Assembly: GCA_903917735.1 (NCBI GenBank)
Contig: CAIXBR010000093.1
Span: 72,227 to 136,226, forward strand
Length of the DNA stretch: 64,000 nt
Direction of reading: 5' to 3'
Source: an uncultured Elusimicrobia bacterium
GTDB lineage: Bacteria; Elusimicrobiota; Elusimicrobia; Elusimicrobiales; UBA9959
Under the pieces are notes generated by a model, which worked only from the letters and a program-made list of their open reading frames with translations, was not told the origin of the DNA and made no database searches. This document shows positions 46,901 through 54,666 of this stretch, piece after piece (positions within the stretch are counted from its first letter, which is position 1; each line of letters begins with the position of its first letter). The position numbers and the translations under genes are program-made.

Positions 46901-48416
46901 TTAAACGCCGAAAAAACCCTTTATCTTTGAAAGCAGGTCCTGCTCTTCTTTTTTAAGTCCGAGAAGCGCGGCGTCGCCCGCCAGCTTCTCTTTTACTTCG
47001 GCCAGCTCCAGGCGCCTTTTCGCCAGCAGCGCCGCTATAGAACCGGCTATCTCAGGGCGGCTAGCAAGGACGCCGCGGAAGCCTTCCCTGTCCAGCCGGT
47101 AGCAGCGGACTTCCCCTTCGGCCACTACCGTCGCCGAGCGCGGCTCGCCTGTAAACAGCCCCATTTCACCCAGGAAATTCCCCTGGCCCAGCGTCTTTAC
47201 CACCCGGTACGCGCCGACTGTCCCTGAATACAGGCGGATCTCGGCCGAGCCCTCGTAAATTATGTAAAGCCAGTCGGCCACGGTTCCCTGCCTGGTGATA
47301 ACTTCACCTCCGGAGAACGGGGTGGATCTGAGCCTGCCGGCCAGCACGGCTCTTTCCTCCTCCGTTAGCGCCTGAAAAACATAAACGCCTTGCAGCGCCG
47401 CAAGGCGCCTTTCCCGCTCGGCCTTGAAACTCTTTTCCGCTACAGCGTCAGCCTCCTCCGTAATAACCACCGACCTGGACGGAGTAGACAGATTTATCCC
47501 TGCCCTGGAAAGAGCGTAATAGATCTTGGCGCGGACATTAGAGTCGGTCCGGCCCGGAGAGGAAAGGTCGGTAAGATAATAGCGGACTTCGTAAGTCACG
47601 CCATTCGTATGGAACTCCTTTATGGCGCAATATGGTGCAGGCAACGCCGCTACGCAGGCCGGCGGGTCTTCGCGCAAAGCCCCGCCCACCGCGTCCATGA
47701 CCTCACCCGGGGCACGGTCGTAATAAACGCTGAAAGAGACCGCGCGGAAGCGGGTATTCTCCGCAGCGCGCCCCAGCACGGTAACGGGGCTCTTCATAAG
47801 TATGATGTTGGGGATCACCACCAGGTCGCCATCGAGCGTTTCTATCGTGGTCTGGCGCCAGCGGATCTCGCGCACCACCCCTTCGTACTTGTCTATACCT
47901 ATCCAGTCTCCGGGCTTAAAAGAGTCTTCGAGGTGCAGCACCATGCCGCCGATCACATTGCCGAGCGTGTCCTGAAGCGAGAAAGCCACCACGCCGGTGA
48001 CCAGCGCGGAAGTGGCCAGCACCCCGCTCAGGTCGGCGCCGGAAGCTGATACAACCGCAAGCCCCGCCAATATATAGGCGCCGGCCAGGATCAGGTCCTC
48101 GACGAACCTGGAAACCCCGGTCTTCAGTTTAGGCATGACTATTGAAAAGCCGAGGACCCCGGCCACGTTTATAGCCGCTACCACGGCGAGCAGGCGGGAC
48201 ATCAGCTCAACCAGTTTGGCAAGGCCTCCCGCGGCCACTCCCCCCCAGGAGTTTAACGGCCAGAATTCCCGCTAGCGAACCGACGGCCATAAAAACCGTT
48301 CCCCCCAGCCTTTTGCGCGAAGCCGGGCCGGAGAAGTAAAGCAGCGCGATAGAAACAAAAAGGACCGAATAAAACCCTATTATCCAGGAACCGAATAAAG
48401 CCGAGATATTTTGCAT
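46901..48416 (-). CDS. MscS-family mechanosensitive channel with C-terminal cyclic-nucleotide-binding domain; N-terminus out of frame at a C7 run
   Basis: The MscS core (GNVIGGMVLHLEDSFKPGDWI) and a cNMP-binding domain (GNFLGEMGLFTGEPRSATV) are in ORF 46901..48238. ORF 48207..48461 encodes two more N-terminal TM helices. Removing one base of the C7 run at 48240..48246 joins them (...AVKLLGGVAAGGLAKLVEL...). Confidence 0.75.
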
Positions 48417-49095: not shown

Positions 49096-49623
49096 TTAAC
49101 GATATGCCAGCTGGCAAAGCAGGCCGAGCTGGACTACTCCTGTCAGAAAGCATGCGGCAAGGAAGAGCCGGTGCTTGCGCGTAGCTATACGCGCGCTGAT
49201 AACTATCTGCCCCACTATGTCCTCGTAATAAGGCGTCGCCGTGACGCCTCCGCCGAGATATTTATCAAGGCGGATGACCAGTTCTATCTGGGGATACTTC
49301 GCGATATCATGAGCCGAGATCAGGCAATCTCCGTCATGCCTCTTATCCATACGCGGATCGATAAAAGGGATCTGCCGGACCGCTTCTATTATCGGCGAGA
49401 GAGCAAGAAGGCCTACAGGCAGCACCACCGCCAGCAGCGCCATAGCCGGGTAAGCGAGCGGCCCGCCGGGAACCACTATCTTGATGAGAACCATCTGGCC
49501 AGCGGCGAAAGCCGTGAGGGCGCCCAGCTTTATATCCGTCCATTCCACCGAACGGCGCACTTTCTCGTATATGATCCAGAGCCGCCGTTCCGGTTCCGGG
49601 TTCAGGTGCGAAGACACGCTCAT
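49096..49623 (-). CDS. Hypothetical 3-4 TM membrane protein (possible DUF5706/Pycsar-effector-like; tentative)
   Basis: 175 aa. AGGAGG SD. Topology: a short cytosolic N-terminus, two adjacent TM helices, a soluble segment, and a C-terminal TM. The family resemblance is from memory only. Confidence 0.5.
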   Translation of the reverse strand: MSVSSHLNPEPERRLWIIYEKVRRSVEWTDIKLGALTAFAAGQMVLIKIVVPGGPLAYPAMALLAVVLPVGLLALSPIIEAVRQIPFIDPRMDKRHDGDCLISAHDIAKYPQIELVIRLDKYLGGGVTATPYYEDIVGQIVISARIATRKHRLFLAACFLTGVVQLGLLCQLAYR

Positions 49624-49667: not shown

Positions 49668-49700
49668 ATTATAAATAAAAAGCCCCCGCTGCGGGGGCTT
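49668..49700 (-). terminator. Rho-independent terminator ending the NRPS-like operon
   Basis: Minus strand AGCCCCCG-cag-CGGGGGCT followed by TTTTTATTTAT. Confidence 0.8.
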
Positions 49701-49716
49701 AATACACCATGATGGC

Positions 49717-50500
49717 CTATTTATTCACGGTTTTAGGCGGCGAGGCGAGCGTTACCCGTATCCAGAGAGCGAGGGGCGTCAGATCCTCGTCCTGCTTGAC
49801 TTTGGAGCGCTGGCGCCCGCCCCCGCGGCGCCCGCCGCGCTTCATACTTAGGCCCGTAGAACCCGGATCCGATCCTTCGCCCTGAGAACCACCCTCCTGC
49901 CAGGTGTTGGAAGTCTTTCCAGTATGCGGAGGCGCTTCTCTGACCAGGGACGTTTCTATACCTACGCTGATCTTTTCCGGCAGGACCGCCCCAAAAAAAT
50001 AGGACAAAGGGATCCGCGCCTCTAAGATACCGCGCTGCTGTACCGGCCCGACATCTATCTCCGCGGCTTCGGTATCCGAAGATGCCGTGAAGGCCGCAGT
50101 ATCCAGCCCGACAAGTTCTACCTGCTGGGCCGCCCGTGACCACTGGCTCTCCGGCGCCGGAAGGCGGAAGCCCAAAATTTTCCCTTTCCCCGCGGACGAA
50201 TCGAGCCAGATGGTGAAATTCTGGCCATAAGAGCCGGCCAGTTCGTCTTTCACGGATTTAGTATGCGGGGACAGCATGATGTAAAGATATTTAGGATCGT
50301 TGGCGAAAGCGTAGGCCAGACCGGAATCCTCGTCCCCCTCCCGCAAATGCCATTTTCTGGATACTGCCGTCCAACACGAAAGATTGCCCCGCCCAGCGGC
50401 TGTTGGTTTTAGGGCCCAGCCAGAAGGCGCGGCCCGGCACCGTCAGAAATAAAGCCGCCGCCGATAATATCCCTGCGCGGACTATTCTGTTTTTGTTCAT
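49717..50500 (-). CDS. Secreted protein (CBM9/DOMON-like, tentative), translationally coupled to the NRPS-like gene; frame broken at a C5 run
   Basis: ATG 50500 overlaps the NRPS stop (ATGA). The product starts MNKNRIVRAGILSAAALFLTVPGRA (signal) ...WAGQSFVLDGSIQKMAFAGG and continues in ORF 49717..50346 (DEDSGLAYAFANDPKYLYIML...) if one base of the C5 run at 50334..50338 is removed. Arg/Gly-rich C-terminus. Confidence 0.6.
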
Positions 50501-53500
50501 AAAGCTCCCTGACTTGCGGCCGGGCCCTGCCGGCGCGCCGGTATGCCGTGCCAGCGCGTACCCGAAGCCAGGCTTTCCCCTTTCATAACAAGGGACAGGT
50601 CGCCCAAGGCCGAACCCTCGCCCATTTCCGTATCGTAAAGGACGGTGGACATGGTTCCCACGGCGCAGCGGCTGCCGATGCGCACCCCGCCCATTTTCAT
50701 CACCCTGTCCTCGAAAAGATGGGTCTGTATGTTGGCGTTCTCGTTCAAAGAAACCTCGTCGCCGATCTCTATAAGTTCGAACTCCGTGAACCAGGTGGTG
50801 TCCAGGTAGCACCGTTTGCCGATCTTAACCCCGAAAGCGCGCAGTACCCCGGACAGGAAAGGGGTGCCGCGCAGCAGGTCCAGGAAGAAAAGCACGGCCA
50901 GGTTCTCGTAAACTCCGGTGACCAGTTCGCTGCGCCAGACGAAATCGCACCAGAGCGGCTTTCTGCCGGGAGAATAACGCCCTATCAAAAGTTTTTTCAG
51001 GGCCAGCGTAGCAGCCACGGCTAATATGCCCGCCGCTATATACAGGAACGGCAGCGCGAACAGCCATTCGCGAAGTTCTATATAGTCCTGCAGGATATCG
51101 GTAGCGTTTATTATAGCCGAGGCCAGCACCACGAAGATGGTAGAAGGCAGTATCACCCGGAAAAATTCTATAAACAGGCGCAGCGCTACAAGGCGGCGGG
51201 GCGGGTTATAGGTCTGCAGGTCTGTAAAGCCCTCCGGCTTCTGGCGGGCCGGCAGGTTGAAGGCAGGCGAGCCCAGCCAGGAGGTGCCGTCGGGGACTGG
51301 CGACGGGACGGCCGGCGGCGCCGAAAGCACGCCTATCAGAATATTGCTCCCGAGCGAGGCCCCGGCCGGGATGTAAGCGCTGTTGCCCAGGAAGGTCCGG
51401 TCCCCGACCTTTGTGGACCCTATGGTCAGCCACCCGTCCCTCACTGTGGGCGCGCCCACCGAGGCGTCGTCGGCCATAAAGCATTCCGCGCCGGCCTCCA
51501 GTAGGTCTGGGTGTATGAACCGTATGGTGGAGATCTCGGAACGCGGCCCCAGTTTCGCGCCGAGAGCCTTCAGCCAGGGCGGCAGGTAAAGCGTGGTGTA
51601 GAACGTGCCGATAACTTCCAGGCTGAGGCTCATCAGCTGGTCGAAGAACCACTTGCGGACGTAGAACGAGCGCGCCACCGGATAACGCCCTGCGCGCATG
51701 CGGCCCAGGAAGAGCCATTTTACCGCCCAGACTTCCGCGCACAGAAGCACTACGAAAGACAGCGACACCAGCGGCGCCACAACCATGAACGAAAAGCCCT
51801 CGTCCAGGTGCCCAAGGTGCGTTATCAGCATAAGCCCGGGGAAGATAGCGCCCAATGTTACAAGCGGGAACACGAACACCCCTGCCGTATGAGCAAGGAC
51901 AGAAAGCGCGTTCCACGGCGGGCGCGGCGTTCCCGGCTCCAGCCTGCCCGAAGGCGCCGCCGGCGAACCGCGCCACAGCTCCCCGGCCGGAACGCGCGTT
52001 CCGTCCGGCAGCATGGAGAGGTCGTCAAGTCCGGCGCCGTCCTCTATCACGGCGCGGCTGCCCACAGAGCAGCGATTCCCGACCCAGCAGCCCCGCCCTA
52101 TGGAGATCGGCGCTATTTTAAGCAGGCCGTCCTCTACGGTTACCCCGTCCACCGTAGTGTCCACACCTATACTGGAACCGTCGCCTATGCTGAACGCGTC
52201 GAACGAGGTAAGACCGTGCTCGCCTATAAATACGTCCTTTCCTATCTTCGCGCCCATCAGTCTGTAATAGGCGTTAAGCAGCGGCGTGCCGTCCAGGTAG
52301 GAAACCGGGGCTGCGCGCATGACGGCGCGCACGAACCAGAAGCGCAGGTAATACCAGCCCCAGAGAGGGTGCTCCCCCGGGCGTATACGCCCGAGCAGCA
52401 GCCATTTGAGCGCTATGGAAAATGCAAGCACTACCGGGGCCGTGACAAGGTACACCAAAAGCGCGAACACAAGGGCCTCTTTAACGGGCCAGTCCGCCAC
52501 CACCAGATAGCCGTAGGCGAGGAAAGCGCCAAGCCACTGCCACGCGTACACCCCGGACAGGAAGACTATCGCCAGCGCCTGACCGGCCATACAGGCGCCG
52601 TAAACGGCCCTGGGAACGGAGTGGAACGGCCTGGGCTTTTCATCCGCAGCAGCGCCGCCGGCGGCCAGTGCGGCCAGCTTGGCTGCCGTCGGGTTGGCGT
52701 AAAGATCCGCCACCGAAATACCGCCAAACCCTGGCAAGCGCCTCAGTCTGGAAACGGCCAGCGCCGCCAGCATGGAATGCCCGCCGAGGTTCAGGAAAAA
52801 GTCGTCGTTTATGGAAATGCCGCTGCGCTCCAGCACCTCTTCCCAGACGGAAAGAACCGTGCCCTCGGCGGCGTTGCGCGGGGCTTCCTTCGCCCCCCCT
52901 TCCGCGCGCAGCGGTTCCTTAGGCGCCGGAAGGCGTTTGCGGTCTATCTTTTTCGACTGCGTAAGAGGCAGCGTCCCGACTTCGTCTAGGAAAGCCGGCA
53001 CCATATAGGGCGGAAGCCTGGAGGAAAGGAATTCACTGATGGCCGCGCGGTCCGGCTTCTGTCCCGCGCGGGGCACCACGTAAGCGGCCAGTTGCTGCGT
53101 TTCGCGGTGCAGGGCTACGGCGGCGGCCAGCACGCCCCGGCACTGCATCAGGAGCGACTCTATCTCCGCCAGCTCTATGCGGTACCCGCGCAGCTTTACC
53201 TGTTCGTCGGAGCGGCCGAGATATTCTATTTCTCCGTCGGAGTTGAACCTGCCCAGGTCAGCCGTGCGGTAAAGCCGCTCCGGAGGGCCTCCGAGCTTAT
53301 CGGCCAGCACGAATTTTTCTTTTTGAAGCTCAGGCCGGTTGAGATAGCCGCGCGCTACCCCTTCGCCGCCGATGCAGATCTCCCCCTCCGCTCCCGGGGG
53401 AACGGGTTGCAGGCGCTCGTCCAGCAGGTAAACCCTGTAATTGGCTATCGGGCGGCCTATAGTAACCGGGCGCCCGGGCTCAAGAACCGCAGAAGTTGCG

Positions 53501-54501
53501 ATTACGGTGGCCTCAGTAGGCCCATAGGTATTAAAAACCGTGCGGCCGGTCCGGCACCAGCGCTTCGCTATGTCCGGCGGGCAGGTTTCCCCGCCGAGGA
53601 TAAGCAGCCGCAAGGCCGGGATATCCCCCTCGAGCATCAGAAGGAAGGTCGGCACGCAGGAAAGTACCGTTACGCCAAGGCCTGCCAGTATGGCCGGGAA
53701 CTCGTGGCCGGAGCGCATTATTTCTTTTGTACCGGTCACCAGGGCCGCGCCGTGGAAGAAGGCCATCCAGATCTCCTCCACGGAAGCGTCGAAAGCCACA
53801 GAGGCCACCTGGAAAACGCGATCGTCCCGGTTCACGCCGTAAAGCGCGGATTCGGCGCGGACAAGGTTAGTGGCGTTGCGGTGCTCTATCTGGACGCCCT
53901 TGGGCCTGCCGGTGGTGCCGGAAGTATAGATCAGGTAGCAAAGGTTTTCCCGCGCCGCACCCGTCTCCCCCCGCGGCACACGCGCGGCGGGCATGGCGGC
54001 TATTTCTTCCCGGTCCGAGTCCAGCTTTACCACCTTGACGCCGGCAGGCAGGACATGCTCAAGCAGCGAGGCCATCTCGGACAGGGTAATAAGACATTTC
54101 GCTCCGCAGTCTTCCAATATGAAGGCTATTCGGTCGGCGGGGGTTTCCGGGTCCAGCGGCACATAGGAGGCCCCGGCCTTCAGAACACCCAGGATAGCTG
54201 TGTAGACTTGTTCCGAACGAGGCAGAAAGATCGCTACACGGTCTTCTTTAGCGGCGCCTAGCCGGCGGAGATAGCGGGCAAGCCTGTTGGCGCGCTCATC
54301 CAGCTCGCGGTACGTCAGCCTGGCCCCGCCGCAAAGCACGGCCAGGCGTTCCGGGCCTTTGTCCGCAGAGGTCTCGAACAGTTCGTGCAGCAGCTCGTCC
54401 CGCGCCAGTGAAGGGTCGTATTCCGGCCCGCTCCACGATCCCAGGAGCAGGCCGAACTGTTCGGGGGTTATAGTCGTTTTATTTCCGTCTGGTAATGTCA
54501 T
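50497..54501 (-). CDS. Single-module NRPS-like poly(amino acid) synthetase (Pls/PosA-type: A-T-[TM2-LbH]x3)
   Basis: 1334 aa. A-domain cores LIYTSGTTGRPKG, FDASVEE, NTYGPTE, GEICIGG and YRTADLGR. PCP motif LGGHS(576)ML. Then three repeats of two TM helices + K(W/K)LLxGR + hexapeptide (LbH) domain at about aa 640-850, 865-1085 and 1105-1320. Confidence 0.82.
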   Translation of the reverse strand: MTLPDGNKTTITPEQFGLLLGSWSGPEYDPSLARDELLHELFETSADKGPERLAVLCGGARLTYRELDERANRLARYLRRLGAAKEDRVAIFLPRSEQVYTAILGVLKAGASYVPLDPETPADRIAFILEDCGAKCLITLSEMASLLEHVLPAGVKVVKLDSDREEIAAMPAARVPRGETGAARENLCYLIYTSGTTGRPKGVQIEHRNATNLVRAESALYGVNRDDRVFQVASVAFDASVEEIWMAFFHGAALVTGTKEIMRSGHEFPAILAGLGVTVLSCVPTFLLMLEGDIPALRLLILGGETCPPDIAKRWCRTGRTVFNTYGPTEATVIATSAVLEPGRPVTIGRPIANYRVYLLDERLQPVPPGAEGEICIGGEGVARGYLNRPELQKEKFVLADKLGGPPERLYRTADLGRFNSDGEIEYLGRSDEQVKLRGYRIELAEIESLLMQCRGVLAAAVALHRETQQLAAYVVPRAGQKPDRAAISEFLSSRLPPYMVPAFLDEVGTLPLTQSKKIDRKRLPAPKEPLRAEGGAKEAPRNAAEGTVLSVWEEVLERSGISINDDFFLNLGGHSMLAALAVSRLRRLPGFGGISVADLYANPTAAKLAALAAGGAAADEKPRPFHSVPRAVYGACMAGQALAIVFLSGVYAWQWLGAFLAYGYLVVADWPVKEALVFALLVYLVTAPVVLAFSIALKWLLLGRIRPGEHPLWGWYYLRFWFVRAVMRAAPVSYLDGTPLLNAYYRLMGAKIGKDVFIGEHGLTSFDAFSIGDGSSIGVDTTVDGVTVEDGLLKIAPISIGRGCWVGNRCSVGSRAVIEDGAGLDDLSMLPDGTRVPAGELWRGSPAAPSGRLEPGTPRPPWNALSVLAHTAGVFVFPLVTLGAIFPGLMLITHLGHLDEGFSFMVVAPLVSLSFVVLLCAEVWAVKWLFLGRMRAGRYPVARSFYVRKWFFDQLMSLSLEVIGTFYTTLYLPPWLKALGAKLGPRSEISTIRFIHPDLLEAGAECFMADDASVGAPTVRDGWLTIGSTKVGDRTFLGNSAYIPAGASLGSNILIGVLSAPPAVPSPVPDGTSWLGSPAFNLPARQKPEGFTDLQTYNPPRRLVALRLFIEFFRVILPSTIFVVLASAIINATDILQDYIELREWLFALPFLYIAAGILAVAATLALKKLLIGRYSPGRKPLWCDFVWRSELVTGVYENLAVLFFLDLLRGTPFLSGVLRAFGVKIGKRCYLDTTWFTEFELIEIGDEVSLNENANIQTHLFEDRVMKMGGVRIGSRCAVGTMSTVLYDTEMGEGSALGDLSLVMKGESLASGTRWHGIPARRQGPAASQGAL

Positions 54502-54633
54502 CGTAAAAAAGCGTTCCTGGGCGGCAAATATAAGTTCTCCGCCTTGCGCGGGCAGCGGGCCCGCGACCTGTCAATTATATAACGTATTTATCGGAGTGTT
54601 TATTGCCTACCCGAATTCATCACGGGCTGCTTG

Positions 54634-54666
54634 CCTTTAAAAGGAAGGGCCCCGTGAAGGGGCCTT
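54634..54666 (-). terminator. Putative terminator/attenuator between the Cys-rich gene and the NRPS-like gene
   Basis: Minus strand AGGCCCC-ttcac-GGGGCCC followed by TTCCTTTTAAA. Confidence 0.5.

What the first reader, a model, noticed from the sequence alone, without database searches (positions are those of the whole stretch)
50497..54501. Pls-type membrane NRPS predicted to polymerise a basic amino acid (hand-derived code DAESIGTVIK)
Architecture:
- One adenylation domain and one PCP (GGHS, Ser576, codon 52776..52774).
- No condensation or TE domain.
- Instead, three tandem units of two TM helices plus a left-handed beta-helix domain. Each unit is introduced by K(W/K)LL(L/I)GR.
- This is the domain logic of epsilon-poly-L-lysine synthetase and related homopoly(amino acid) synthetases.

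Specificity code:
- I aligned the A4-A5 region by hand to GrsA-PheA. D235 corresponds to D238 here, and the NxYGPTE anchors are conserved.
- This gives specificity residues D A E S I G T V I K.
- That matches the Lys code as I remember it (DAESIGSVCK) at 8 of 10 positions and differs clearly from the Orn code (DVGEIGSIDK).

A cationic polymer synthetase in an hgcAB-bearing diderm lineage, with unknown product length and linkage, is worth experimental follow-up.
Basis: partly seen in the sequence, partly recalled or inferred. Interest (0 to 1): 0.7.

Follow-up and report, generated by a model that had tools for sequence, protein, structure and literature searches.

The report
Polylysine-type membrane peptide synthetase gene
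This gene encodes an intact member of the already known Pls/PosA family of membrane-bound enzymes that string one basic amino acid into a cationic polymer; lysine is the most likely substrate, and it is an ordinary new member of the family, not a new kind of system.

Summary
ORF 50497..54501 (-) encodes 1334 aa with one adenylation domain, one carrier domain (GGHS, Ser576) and no condensation or thioesterase domain. Its C-terminal ~700 aa match NCBIfam TIGR02353 "Pls/PosA family non-ribosomal peptide synthetase" at 613 bits (cutoff 423).

The C-terminal region has three units that are 25-30% identical to each other. Each has two long membrane helices followed by a left-handed beta-helix. An AlphaFold model supports this (pLDDT 92).

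The same alignment reproduced the known or published codes of three control enzymes. The code matches experimentally proven Pls (DAESIGTVVK, Lys) at 9 of 10 positions and PosA (DMEHNGTVSK, Orn) at 6 of 10. All five residues that contact Lys-AMP in the Pls crystal structure are conserved, as is the Ala at position 2 that goes with lysine.

The case is not novel. NCBI has a curated model for this family. The identical code was already tabulated as "Lys" for an Acidobacteria homolog (Patel & Gulick 2023). It occurs in 60 of 70 homolog-bearing species genomes examined, across many diderm phyla. Gene context is not conserved, so the gene stands alone.

Substrate, linkage and chain length remain predictions. 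Verdict: new member of a known kind, interest about 0.3.

The parts
50497..54501 (-). Complete Pls/PosA-family single-module NRPS gene (1334 aa plus TGA stop)
   Evidence: ORF list and translation. TIGR02353 at 613 bits against a cutoff of 423. The same protein at 100% identity is on 7 public contigs.
52948..54378 (-). Adenylation domain (residues 42-518). Core motifs: A3 YTSGTTGRPKG, A5 NTYGPTE, A7 YRTAD, A8 GRSDEQVKLRGYRIELAEIE, A10 K518
   Evidence: Pfam AMP-binding and AMP-binding_C. TIGR01733 at 442 bits. Motif scan. PDB hits to NRPS A domains, including 7WEW.
53500..53790 (-). Stretch holding specificity-code positions 1-9: D238 A239 E242 S281 I301 G303 T325 V333 I334. The tenth, K518, is at 52948-52950. 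Code = DAESIGTVIK
   Evidence: MAFFT alignment to PheA, with Pls and PosA as controls.
52666..52857 (-). Carrier (PCP/T) domain, residues 549-612. The phosphopantetheine attachment site is Ser576 in GGHS, codon 52774-52776
   Evidence: Pfam PP-binding, E 1e-7. Motif and codon check.
51922..52626 (-). Polymerisation-domain unit 1 (residues 626-860): membrane helices ~631-668 and 673-703, KWLLLGR at 699, then a left-handed beta-helix
   Evidence: Hydropathy and unit alignment. AF2 secondary structure. Hexapep at 799-823. LbH PDB hits.
51202..51921 (-). Polymerisation-domain unit 2 (residues 861-1100): helices ~865-899 and 904-932, KWLFLGR at 928, then a beta-helix
   Evidence: Hexapep_2 at 1030-1057. 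LbH PDB hit 4n27.
50500..51201 (-). Polymerisation-domain unit 3 (residues 1101-1334): helices ~1102-1137 and 1143-1172, KKLLIGR at 1169, then a beta-helix containing the THLFEDR motif
   Evidence: Galactoside O-acetyltransferase hits by sequence and by fold.
54574..54602 (-). Sigma-70-like promoter match (TAAACA-17-TATAAT), 73 nt upstream of the ATG
   Evidence: Consensus scan, 10/12 matches. Consensus match only; this lineage's promoter type is unknown.
54648..54664 (-). Terminator-like GC hairpin just after the upstream 170-aa ORF. It separates that ORF from pls
   Evidence: sequence.
49717..50500 (-). Downstream gene. Its ATG overlaps the pls TGA (ATGA). It encodes a signal-peptide protein of an uncharacterised 12-member family and is frameshifted at the A4 run 50353-50356. 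It may be co-transcribed with pls; a functional link is not established
   Evidence: Strong terminator-like hairpin after it at 49680-49700.

Best explanation
The gene encodes an intact cationic homopoly(amino acid) synthetase of the Pls/PosA family, most likely specific for lysine.

Proposed mechanism, by analogy with Pls:
1. The A domain adenylates L-lysine and loads it as a thioester on the phosphopantetheine arm of Ser576.
2. The carrier domain delivers it to the membrane-embedded C-terminal domain. This domain has six membrane helices in three hairpins, carrying three left-handed beta-helix lobes on the cytoplasmic side.
3. There, the side-chain (epsilon) amine of a free lysine or of a non-covalently held growing chain attacks the thioester.
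4. Repeating this gives an isopeptide-linked polylysine without any condensation or thioesterase domain.

Shown here: the domain architecture, family membership, carrier serine, intact adenylation motifs, specificity code and predicted fold.

Inferred from characterised relatives: L-Lys as substrate, epsilon linkage, iterative chain growth, cytoplasmic orientation of the lobes, and export. Chain length and physiological role are unknown.
For: - Family: TIGR02353 at 613 bits (cutoff 423) over model positions 3-695 of 695. Colinear full-length alignment to proven PosA, 34% identity, E=0.
- Architecture: Pfam domains, six membrane segments and three homologous units, AF2 model with pLDDT 92.3 and pTM 0.92 showing the threefold helix-pair plus beta-helix pattern, and only LbH acyltransferases as fold neighbours.
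- Substrate code: DAESIGTVIK matches Pls DAESIGTVVK at 9/10 and PosA at 6/10, with three controls reproduced. The A-domain region is 45% identical to Pls_A and 37% to PosA.
- Contact residues: the Pls_A residues that contact Lys-AMP (D213, E217, S256, T301, K495; PMC11253843) correspond to D238, E242, S281, T325, K518, all conserved.
- Position 2 is Ala, as in the Lys enzymes. Met goes with Orn, and the M218A change in PosA raises Lys efficiency about 10-fold (PMC10522769).
- The identical code in Acidobacteria PYV28785.1 was already assigned Lys.
- A fungal enzyme about 51% identical to Pls, with the same pocket, makes epsilon-PL (PMC7179176).
- Mechanism of Pls: PMC9205021.
- The code is conserved in 71 of the 121 retrieved sequences (query included) and in 60 of 70 species genomes, which points to selection on the pocket.
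Against: - No assay exists for this protein or for any enzyme with Ile at code position 9.
- Code-based prediction failed for PosA: its nearest code was a Lys domain, yet it uses Orn.
- The 34-residue pocket signature hardly discriminates: 23/34 to Pls, 21/34 to PosA, 20/34 to PheA.
- Overall identity to Pls_A is only 45%.
- The catalytic residues of the polymerisation domain are unknown. No His is invariant; H1261 is His in 57 of 66 sequences.
- No Sfp-type phosphopantetheinyl transferase or exporter was looked for or found nearby.
- Linkage and length cannot be read from sequence.
Confidence: 0.72

Rival explanations
1. It is a genuine Pls/PosA-family polymer synthetase, but the A domain prefers another cationic building block. 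Candidates are L-ornithine, D-lysine, beta-lysine, a hydroxylated or methylated lysine, or arginine. The product would then not be epsilon-poly-L-lysine.
For: - PosA's closest Stachelhaus match was a Lys domain, yet it is 160-fold selective for Orn.
- A Bdellovibrionales homolog unexpectedly preferred Arg.
- Position 9 is Ile rather than the Val of Pls. This side chain lines the pocket; Ser313 at this position hydrogen-bonds the substrate amine in PosA. A bulkier residue could shorten the pocket.
- The 34-residue signature is nearly as close to PosA as to Pls.
Against: - Position 2 is Ala, not Met, Phe, Gly or Ser. That is the residue shown by mutagenesis to set chain length.
- All five Lys-AMP contact residues of 7WEW are conserved.
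- Ile and Val alternate at position 9 among close relatives. For example L001, 66% identical, has Val, which suggests the two are interchangeable.
- No lysine 2,3-aminomutase, racemase or other tailoring gene is adjacent.
Confidence: 0.15
2. The enzyme does not release a free long polymer. It transfers one or a few lysyl units to a membrane or envelope acceptor such as a lipid, glycan or protein, changing surface charge in this diderm anaerobe.
For: - The catalytic domain is membrane-embedded and built from acyltransferase-type LbH lobes.
- The physiological role of the family outside actinomycetes is unknown. PosA made only 7-12-mers in vitro, and its knockout had only a mild biofilm phenotype.
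- The clade is widespread in non-antibiotic-producing anaerobes, including gut Bacteroidota.
Against: - Every characterised family member makes free isopeptide homopolymers.
- No conserved neighbouring gene suggests a dedicated acceptor pathway.
- There is no direct evidence for this reading.
Confidence: 0.08
3. The gene is an inactive relic. Examples would be a crippled A7 motif or a missing phosphopantetheinyl transferase, in a region where neighbouring genes carry frameshifts.
For: - The A7 motif reads YRTAD instead of the usual YRTGD.
- Two other genes in the window read as frameshifted: the gene immediately downstream, and hgcA.
Against: - The 4-kb reading frame is uninterrupted, with all other core motifs, the carrier serine and K518 intact.
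- YR[TS]AD occurs in 15 of the 121 retrieved sequences (query included), so it is a normal variant.
- The sequence is 100% conserved across assemblies from different samples.
- 57 C-terminal positions are invariant across 66 sequences.
Confidence: 0.03

Closest known systems
[quoted passage not shown]
   Same: - Same A-PCP-(6 TM / 3 tandem domain) layout with no C or TE domain.
- Code identical at 9 of 10 positions (DAESIGTVVK vs DAESIGTVIK).
- All Lys-AMP contact residues are conserved.
- A-domain region is 45% identical.
   Different: - Val to Ile at code position 9.
- Different phylum: probably Elusimicrobiota, an anaerobic diderm, versus Actinomycetota.
- No peptidase gene directly flanks pls here. 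S. albulus encodes epsilon-PL-degrading enzymes; that pldII lies next to pls there is my recollection and was not checked.
PosA, delta-poly-L-ornithine synthetase of Acinetobacter baumannii (ATY43264; PDB 8G95-8G98)
   Same: - Colinear over the whole length (34% identity, E=0).
- Stand-alone gene in a diderm bacterium.
- Same predicted pseudo-threefold LbH-on-helical-bundle model for the C-terminal domain.
   Different: - Code DMEHNGTVSK versus DAESIGTVIK (6/10).
- Met218, which excludes Lys, is Ala here.
- Ser313 is Ile here.
Uncharacterised Acidobacteria bacterium homolog PYV28785.1 (Patel & Gulick 2023, Supplementary Table 2)
   Same: Identical 10-residue code DAESIGTVIK, listed as predicted Lys. 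Homologs in Holophagaceae and Geothrix also carry this code.
   Different: Different phylum. Neither protein has been tested. Sequence identity to PYV28785.1 itself was not measured.
Epls, fungal epsilon-PL synthetase of Epichloe festucae
   Same: It shows that the Pls architecture plus a conserved Lys pocket predicts epsilon-PL production even at about 51% identity to Pls.
   Different: Eukaryotic, and makes a short-chain product. It was not aligned here.
Hexapeptide-repeat (left-handed beta-helix) acyltransferases, e.g. galactoside/maltose O-acetyltransferase, serine acetyltransferase
   Same: - Each of the three soluble lobes has this fold.
- These enzymes use a pantetheine-linked acyl thioester donor at the interfaces of a trimer. 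That is a plausible model for how PCP-bound Lys is used.
   Different: - Here the three lobes are fused in one chain and anchored by six membrane helices.
- The donor is carrier-protein-bound, not CoA.
- No conserved catalytic His was found.
- Fold matches cover only one lobe (TM-score on the query <= 0.15).

Membership tests
Pls/PosA family NRPS (cationic homopoly(amino acid) synthetases; NCBIfam TIGR02353) | The C-terminal ~700-aa domain matches the family model above its curated cutoff | tested here: met
   613.2 bits against a cutoff of 423.1; residues 641-1322 cover model positions 3-695 of 695.
Pls/PosA family NRPS (cationic homopoly(amino acid) synthetases; NCBIfam TIGR02353) | Single A domain plus single carrier domain, with no condensation or thioesterase domain | tested here: met
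   Pfam and NCBIfam scans. No HHxxxDG motif.
Pls/PosA family NRPS (cationic homopoly(amino acid) synthetases; NCBIfam TIGR02353) | Six transmembrane helices in three pairs, separating three homologous soluble domains | tested here: met
   Hydropathy and 25-30% inter-unit identity. AF2 model with pLDDT 92.3 shows three helix pairs, each followed by a beta-helix. Real membrane insertion was not tested.
Pls/PosA family NRPS (cationic homopoly(amino acid) synthetases; NCBIfam TIGR02353) | Asp at code position 1 and Glu at position 3, which bind the alpha- and side-chain amines of a diamino acid | tested here: met
   D238 and E242. Defined as family-conserved in PMC10522769.
Pls/PosA family NRPS (cationic homopoly(amino acid) synthetases; NCBIfam TIGR02353) | Iteratively forms isopeptide-linked homopolymer from a PCP-bound monomer and a free acceptor | not testable with these tools
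   Needs holo-enzyme assay and LC-MS. Mechanism known for Pls and PosA.
epsilon-poly-L-lysine synthetase (Lys-specific Pls sensu stricto) | Specificity code DAESIGTVVK, with Ala at position 2 | tested here: met
   DAESIGTVIK, 9/10, with Ala239 at position 2. The only difference is Val to Ile at position 9 (table).
epsilon-poly-L-lysine synthetase (Lys-specific Pls sensu stricto) | Residues contacting Lys-AMP in PDB 7WEW (D213, E217, S256, T301, K495) | tested here: met
   They align to D238, E242, S281, T325, K518, all identical.
epsilon-poly-L-lysine synthetase (Lys-specific Pls sensu stricto) | Adenylates L-Lys preferentially; the product is epsilon-linked polylysine | not testable with these tools
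antiSMASH and NRPSpredictor were not available.
epsilon-poly-L-lysine synthetase (Lys-specific Pls sensu stricto) | C-terminal domain aligns with Pls C1-C3 of S. albulus | tested here: inconclusive
   The full-length Pls sequence was not obtainable (only 7WEW residues 147-505). It was tested indirectly through TIGR02353 and PosA, both positive. The AFDB fold library was not available.
delta-poly-L-ornithine synthetase (PosA type) | Code DMEHNGTVSK, with Met at position 2 and Ser at position 9 | tested here: not met
   6/10 identical; Ala239 and Ile334 instead.
Poly-Dap / poly-Dab synthetases | Phe at code position 2 (DFE...) | tested here: not met
   Ala at position 2.
Canonical NRPS elongation/termination module (C-A-T-TE) | Condensation domain and thioesterase or reductase release domain | tested here: not met
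   No PF00668 or PF00975 hit; the A and T domains only resemble those of such modules.

The most novel reading that the evidence does not exclude
The large DAESIGTV(I/V)K clade of Pls homologs is found in anaerobic and host-associated diderm phyla: Elusimicrobiota, Bacteroidota including Bacteroides and Prevotella, Planctomycetota, Verrucomicrobiota and Acidobacteriota. No member has been characterised. The clade may make something other than Streptomyces-type secreted epsilon-PL. Possibilities are a short or cell-bound polylysine, or lysylation of an envelope component, with a physiological role in surface charge, biofilm or metal handling rather than antibiosis.
Probability: 0.15. Interest if true: 0.55.

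Novelty: new member of a known kind. Interest (0 to 1): 0.3.

Why it matters
If expressed and active, this would add a polylysine-type cationic polymer to the repertoire of an uncultured lineage, probably Elusimicrobiota, that also carries hgcAB (hgcA reads as frameshifted here). It would also give a first biochemical data point for the very common Ile-9 variant of the Lys code.

No enzyme of this clade from diderm anaerobes has been tested. One assay would therefore calibrate substrate prediction for hundreds of homologs, including those in gut Bacteroidota. The polymerisation domain also has no solved structure or known catalytic residues in any family member. This gene offers nothing special for that question compared with the many cultured-organism homologs.

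Tried and rejected
- **Solved structure of the polymerisation domain.** Sequence search and fold search found only single-lobe LbH acyltransferases. No cryo-EM paper was found. The AFDB library was unavailable.
- **Conserved gene neighbourhood.** Neighbours differ completely around the 80% and 69% identical homologs, so no accessory pathway can be inferred.
- **Downstream ATGA-coupled gene as an accessory factor.** It is adjacent to pls here and in Elusimicrobia locus L060. Four other family members are not next to pls, and the gene is frameshifted here. I rejected it as a general partner.
- **34-residue pocket signature as a stand-in for NRPSpredictor.** It did not discriminate: 23, 21 and 20 of 34. 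The position list was recalled from memory.
- **Invariant catalytic His in the C-terminal domain.** None exists; H1261 is His in 57 of 66 sequences.
- **A7 YRTAD as a sign of inactivation.** Rejected, because 15 of the 121 retrieved sequences (query included) share it.
- **Full-length S. albulus Pls sequence.** Not obtained. Only 7WEW residues 147-505 were recovered, using a chimeric query. The PosA sequence came from OCR text with small errors. I chose not to spend a third large protein search on this.
- **Hamano 2014 paper.** Not held in the library.
- **Taxonomy.** The window's own genome is not among the species representatives. Assignment to Elusimicrobiota rests only on the best-hit names.
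Full report

Yes. A single ATG-initiated ORF runs 54501 to 50497 on the minus strand and encodes 1334 aa.

- Pfam finds AMP-binding (residues 42-387, E 6e-95), AMP-binding_C (446-518), PP-binding (549-612) and hexapeptide repeats. There is no condensation or thioesterase domain, and no HHxxxDG motif.
- The carrier motif GGHS is at 573-576.
- A 19-residue hydropathy scan finds six strongly hydrophobic segments in three pairs: about 632-662 and 672-704, 865-897 and 899-935, 1104-1138 and 1143-1174.
- When the C-terminal region is cut into three units, they align with each other at 25-30% identity. Each has the order helix, helix, K(W/K)L(L/F)(L/I)GR, helical linker, beta-helix, W-G-(S/I)-PA.
- Two details need correcting. 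The second motif is KWLFLGR. The motif ends the second helix of each pair rather than opening the unit.

**2. What is it?**

NCBIfam TIGR02353, named "Pls/PosA family non-ribosomal peptide synthetase", matches residues 641-1322 over essentially the whole model at 613 bits (curated cutoff 423). The generic amino-acid adenylation model TIGR01733 is also passed.

The whole protein aligns colinearly with PosA (residues 27-1322 against 15-1310, 34% identity, E=0). PosA is the delta-poly-L-ornithine synthetase of Acinetobacter baumannii, shown to make polymer in vitro; I took its sequence from the paper's supplement.

An AlphaFold2 model of residues 616-1334, built with a 66-sequence alignment, is confident (mean pLDDT 92.3, pTM 0.92). 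It repeats three times the pattern of two ~30-35-residue helices, short helices, then a run of short beta-strands.

Foldseek against the PDB returns only hexapeptide-repeat acyltransferases: galactoside and maltose O-acetyltransferases, serine acetyltransferases and sugar N-acetyltransferases. Each covers just one lobe (TM-score on the query <= 0.15). Sequence search of the PDB agrees for all three lobes.

So no structure of the whole polymerisation domain is available. The model matches the AlphaFold and RoseTTAFold description published for PosA: six bent membrane helices under a pseudo-threefold bundle of three left-handed beta-helices (PMC10522769).

**3. Substrate**

I confirmed my copy of the PheA sequence against PDB 1AMU; it is identical over residues 1-556. 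I then aligned it with the query, with PosA, and with residues 147-505 of the Pls A domain. The Pls fragment was recovered from PDB 7WEW using a chimeric query.

The ten Stachelhaus positions give:

| Enzyme | Code | Note |
|---|---|---|
| PheA | DAWTIAAICK | known code |
| Pls | DAESIGTVVK | published code |
| PosA | DMEHNGTVSK | published code |
| Query | DAESIGTVIK | this gene |

The first three are controls and all came out correct. It corresponds to D238, A239, E242, S281, I301, G303, T325, V333, I334 and K518.

- The code matches Pls (experimentally Lys) at 9/10 and PosA (experimentally Orn) at 6/10.
- In the Pls_A-Lys-AMP structure, D213 and K495 hold the amino acid backbone, E217 salt-bridges the epsilon-amine, and S256 and T301 hydrogen-bond it (PMC11253843). 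The equivalents here are all identical.
- Patel and Gulick showed that code position 2 tracks side-chain length: Ala for Lys, Met for Orn, Phe for Dap/Dab, Gly for beta-Lys. They also showed that M218A raises PosA's efficiency for Lys about 10-fold. The query has Ala.
- Their Supplementary Table 2 already lists the identical code DAESIGTVIK for an Acidobacteria homolog, with the prediction "Lys".

Caveats:

- PosA itself shows that nearest-code prediction can mislead.
- No Ile-9 enzyme has been assayed.
- A 34-residue pocket signature, with positions recalled from memory, does not discriminate (23/34 to Pls, 21/34 to PosA, 20/34 to PheA).

I put L-Lys at roughly 0.75-0.8, given family membership.

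**4. How it most likely works**

By analogy with Pls (review PMC9205021), the steps are:

1. The A domain forms Lys-AMP and loads Lys onto the phosphopantetheine of Ser576.
2. The C-terminal domain catalyses attack of the epsilon-amine of a freely diffusible Lys, or of the non-covalently held growing chain, on that thioester.
3. The cycle repeats, with no covalent chain tethering and no dedicated release domain.

Each helix pair is a hairpin, and the basic motif follows the second helix. The three LbH lobes should therefore sit on the cytoplasmic face, where the PCP can reach them. This orientation, and export of the product through or alongside the helical bundle, are inferences.

LbH acyltransferases bind a pantetheine-linked acyl donor at lobe interfaces. 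That offers a plausible picture for the PCP arm, but the active site is unknown. In a 66-sequence alignment, 57 C-terminal positions are invariant (for example K699/K928/K1169, D768, E989, N1253, R1266). No His is invariant; H1261 in THLFEDR is His in 57 of 66 sequences.

The adenylation motifs are intact. The unusual A7 YRTAD (or YRSAD) is shared by 15 of the 121 retrieved sequences, query included. There is no sign of decay.

**5. Context**

- Upstream (minus strand), a GC-rich hairpin with a T-rich tail (54664-54648) follows the preceding 170-aa ORF. A TAAACA-17-TATAAT match lies at 54602-54574. These are consensus matches only.
- The neighbours have no evident link to the polymer. They are a TPR protein, an amidohydrolase, an S66 LD-carboxypeptidase, a methyltransferase, an MscS-type channel with a cNMP-binding domain, and an HrpB helicase.
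- The neighbourhoods of the 80% and 69% identical homologs are entirely different. As with A. baumannii posA, this is a stand-alone gene.
- The protein itself is 100% identical on seven public contigs from several samples.
- The best named relatives are Elusimicrobiota MAGs from peat and fen (58-66% identity). The window is therefore probably from that phylum. This rests on best hits only.
- hgcB is present and hgcA is recognisable.

**6. How common is it?**

- The C-terminal domain alone finds 744 clusters (50% identity) at E<=1e-30 among 1.84 billion representatives.
- Of the 121 retrieved sequences (the 120 listed hits, whose top hit is the query's own protein, plus one more member of its cluster), 71 carry exactly DAESIGTVIK and 19 carry the Pls code.
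- Of 70 species genomes for which the A domain could be read, 60 carry DAESIGTVIK. They include Bacteroides, Prevotella, Paludibacter, Schlesneria, Isosphaeraceae, Pirellulales, Verrucomicrobiota, Holophagaceae, Geothrix limicola and Bacillus rhizoplanae.
- NCBI already names close relatives "Pls/PosA family non-ribosomal peptide synthetase".
- Patel and Gulick had reported the family in many bacterial phyla, archaea, fungi and some lower eukaryotes.

**7. Comparison and novelty**

- The protein works like Pls, and it is a member of the Pls/PosA family by every sequence-level criterion I could test.
- Calling it a Lys-specific epsilon-PL synthetase remains a prediction.
- It is not a PosA-type (Orn) or a Dap/Dab-type enzyme by code.
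- It is a new member of a known kind.
- The only mildly new aspects are the host lineage and the fact that nobody has assayed the Ile-9 clade. The literature searches found no characterised member from these phyla.

**8. Side observations**

*Downstream gene.* The gene immediately downstream starts with an ATG that overlaps the pls TGA (ATGA at 50500-50497). It encodes a signal peptide (MNKNRIVRAGILSAAALFLTVPGRA...). It then needs a +1 shift at an AAAA run (50353-50356) to continue into the 209-aa ORF.

- The same four A's are present in four independent assemblies that are 99.98-100% identical to the window.
- Removing one A gives a 260-aa protein, like its 244-281-aa relatives.
- The family has only 12 members in 5.8 billion proteins and no Pfam match.
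- One homolog sits directly upstream of pls in Elusimicrobia locus L060, with a TAGTG stop/start overlap.
- Four other homologs are not near pls. I therefore do not regard it as a general partner.

*Other items.*

- The next ORF (49096..49623) matches PADLOC PycTM / 2TM-effector models (E about 1e-9), with no cyclase nearby.
- hgcA is split between two frames near 16601-16606.
- Some pls homologs carry a fused phosphopantetheinyl-transferase domain.

**9. Verdict**

It is ordinary in kind. Interest is about 0.3.

Noticed in passing
window 49717-50500 (-), frameshift at 50353-50356; L060:9075-9989: The gene right after pls starts at an ATG overlapping the pls stop codon (ATGA). It encodes a signal peptide, then needs a +1 shift at an AAAA run to continue into the 209-aa ORF. 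The same AAAA is present in four independent assemblies. The family is rare (12 proteins, no Pfam). One homolog abuts pls in another Elusimicrobia MAG (TAGTG overlap), but four others are not near pls.
   Followed up: yes
window 16439-17439 (+), frame switch near 16601-16606; hgcB 17430-17738; ArsR 15979-16425 (-): hgcA appears frameshifted. Its N-terminal ~55 residues are in one frame. The corrinoid and cap-helix part (NVWCAAGK) is in another (NF040863 at 270 bits, just under the 275 cutoff). hgcB is intact (124 bits, cutoff 99). This is either an assembly error or a pseudogene.
   Followed up: partly
window 49096-49623 (-): A 175-aa protein with predicted membrane segments matches PADLOC PycTM (E 1.9e-9) and CBASS 2TM-effector (E 7.8e-10) models. 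No cyclase gene is recognisable next to it. It is separated from the upstream gene by a strong terminator-like hairpin (49680-49700).
   Followed up: partly
window 46901-48238 (-): An MscS-type mechanosensitive channel fused to a cyclic-nucleotide-binding domain, about 1 kb from the PycTM-like gene.
   Followed up: no
proteins P0078 (1745 aa) and P0086 (1759 aa): Some Pls homologs (~49% identical) carry an extra 4'-phosphopantetheinyl transferase domain (PF01648) fused in the same polypeptide. This would be a self-priming variant of the family.
   Followed up: no
window 53269-53283 (residues 411-415): The adenylation core motif A7 reads YRTAD instead of the usual YRTGD. The Ala variant recurs in 15 of the 121 retrieved sequences (query included), so it is a clade feature and not damage.
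   Followed up: yes
L085 6405-7793 and the P0273 contig: A ~465-aa POTRA-domain protein lies directly upstream of the 80%-identical pls homolog. A similar POTRA protein lies next to a homolog of the 209-aa protein in another contig. This hints at local rearrangement of one neighbourhood within the lineage.
   Followed up: no
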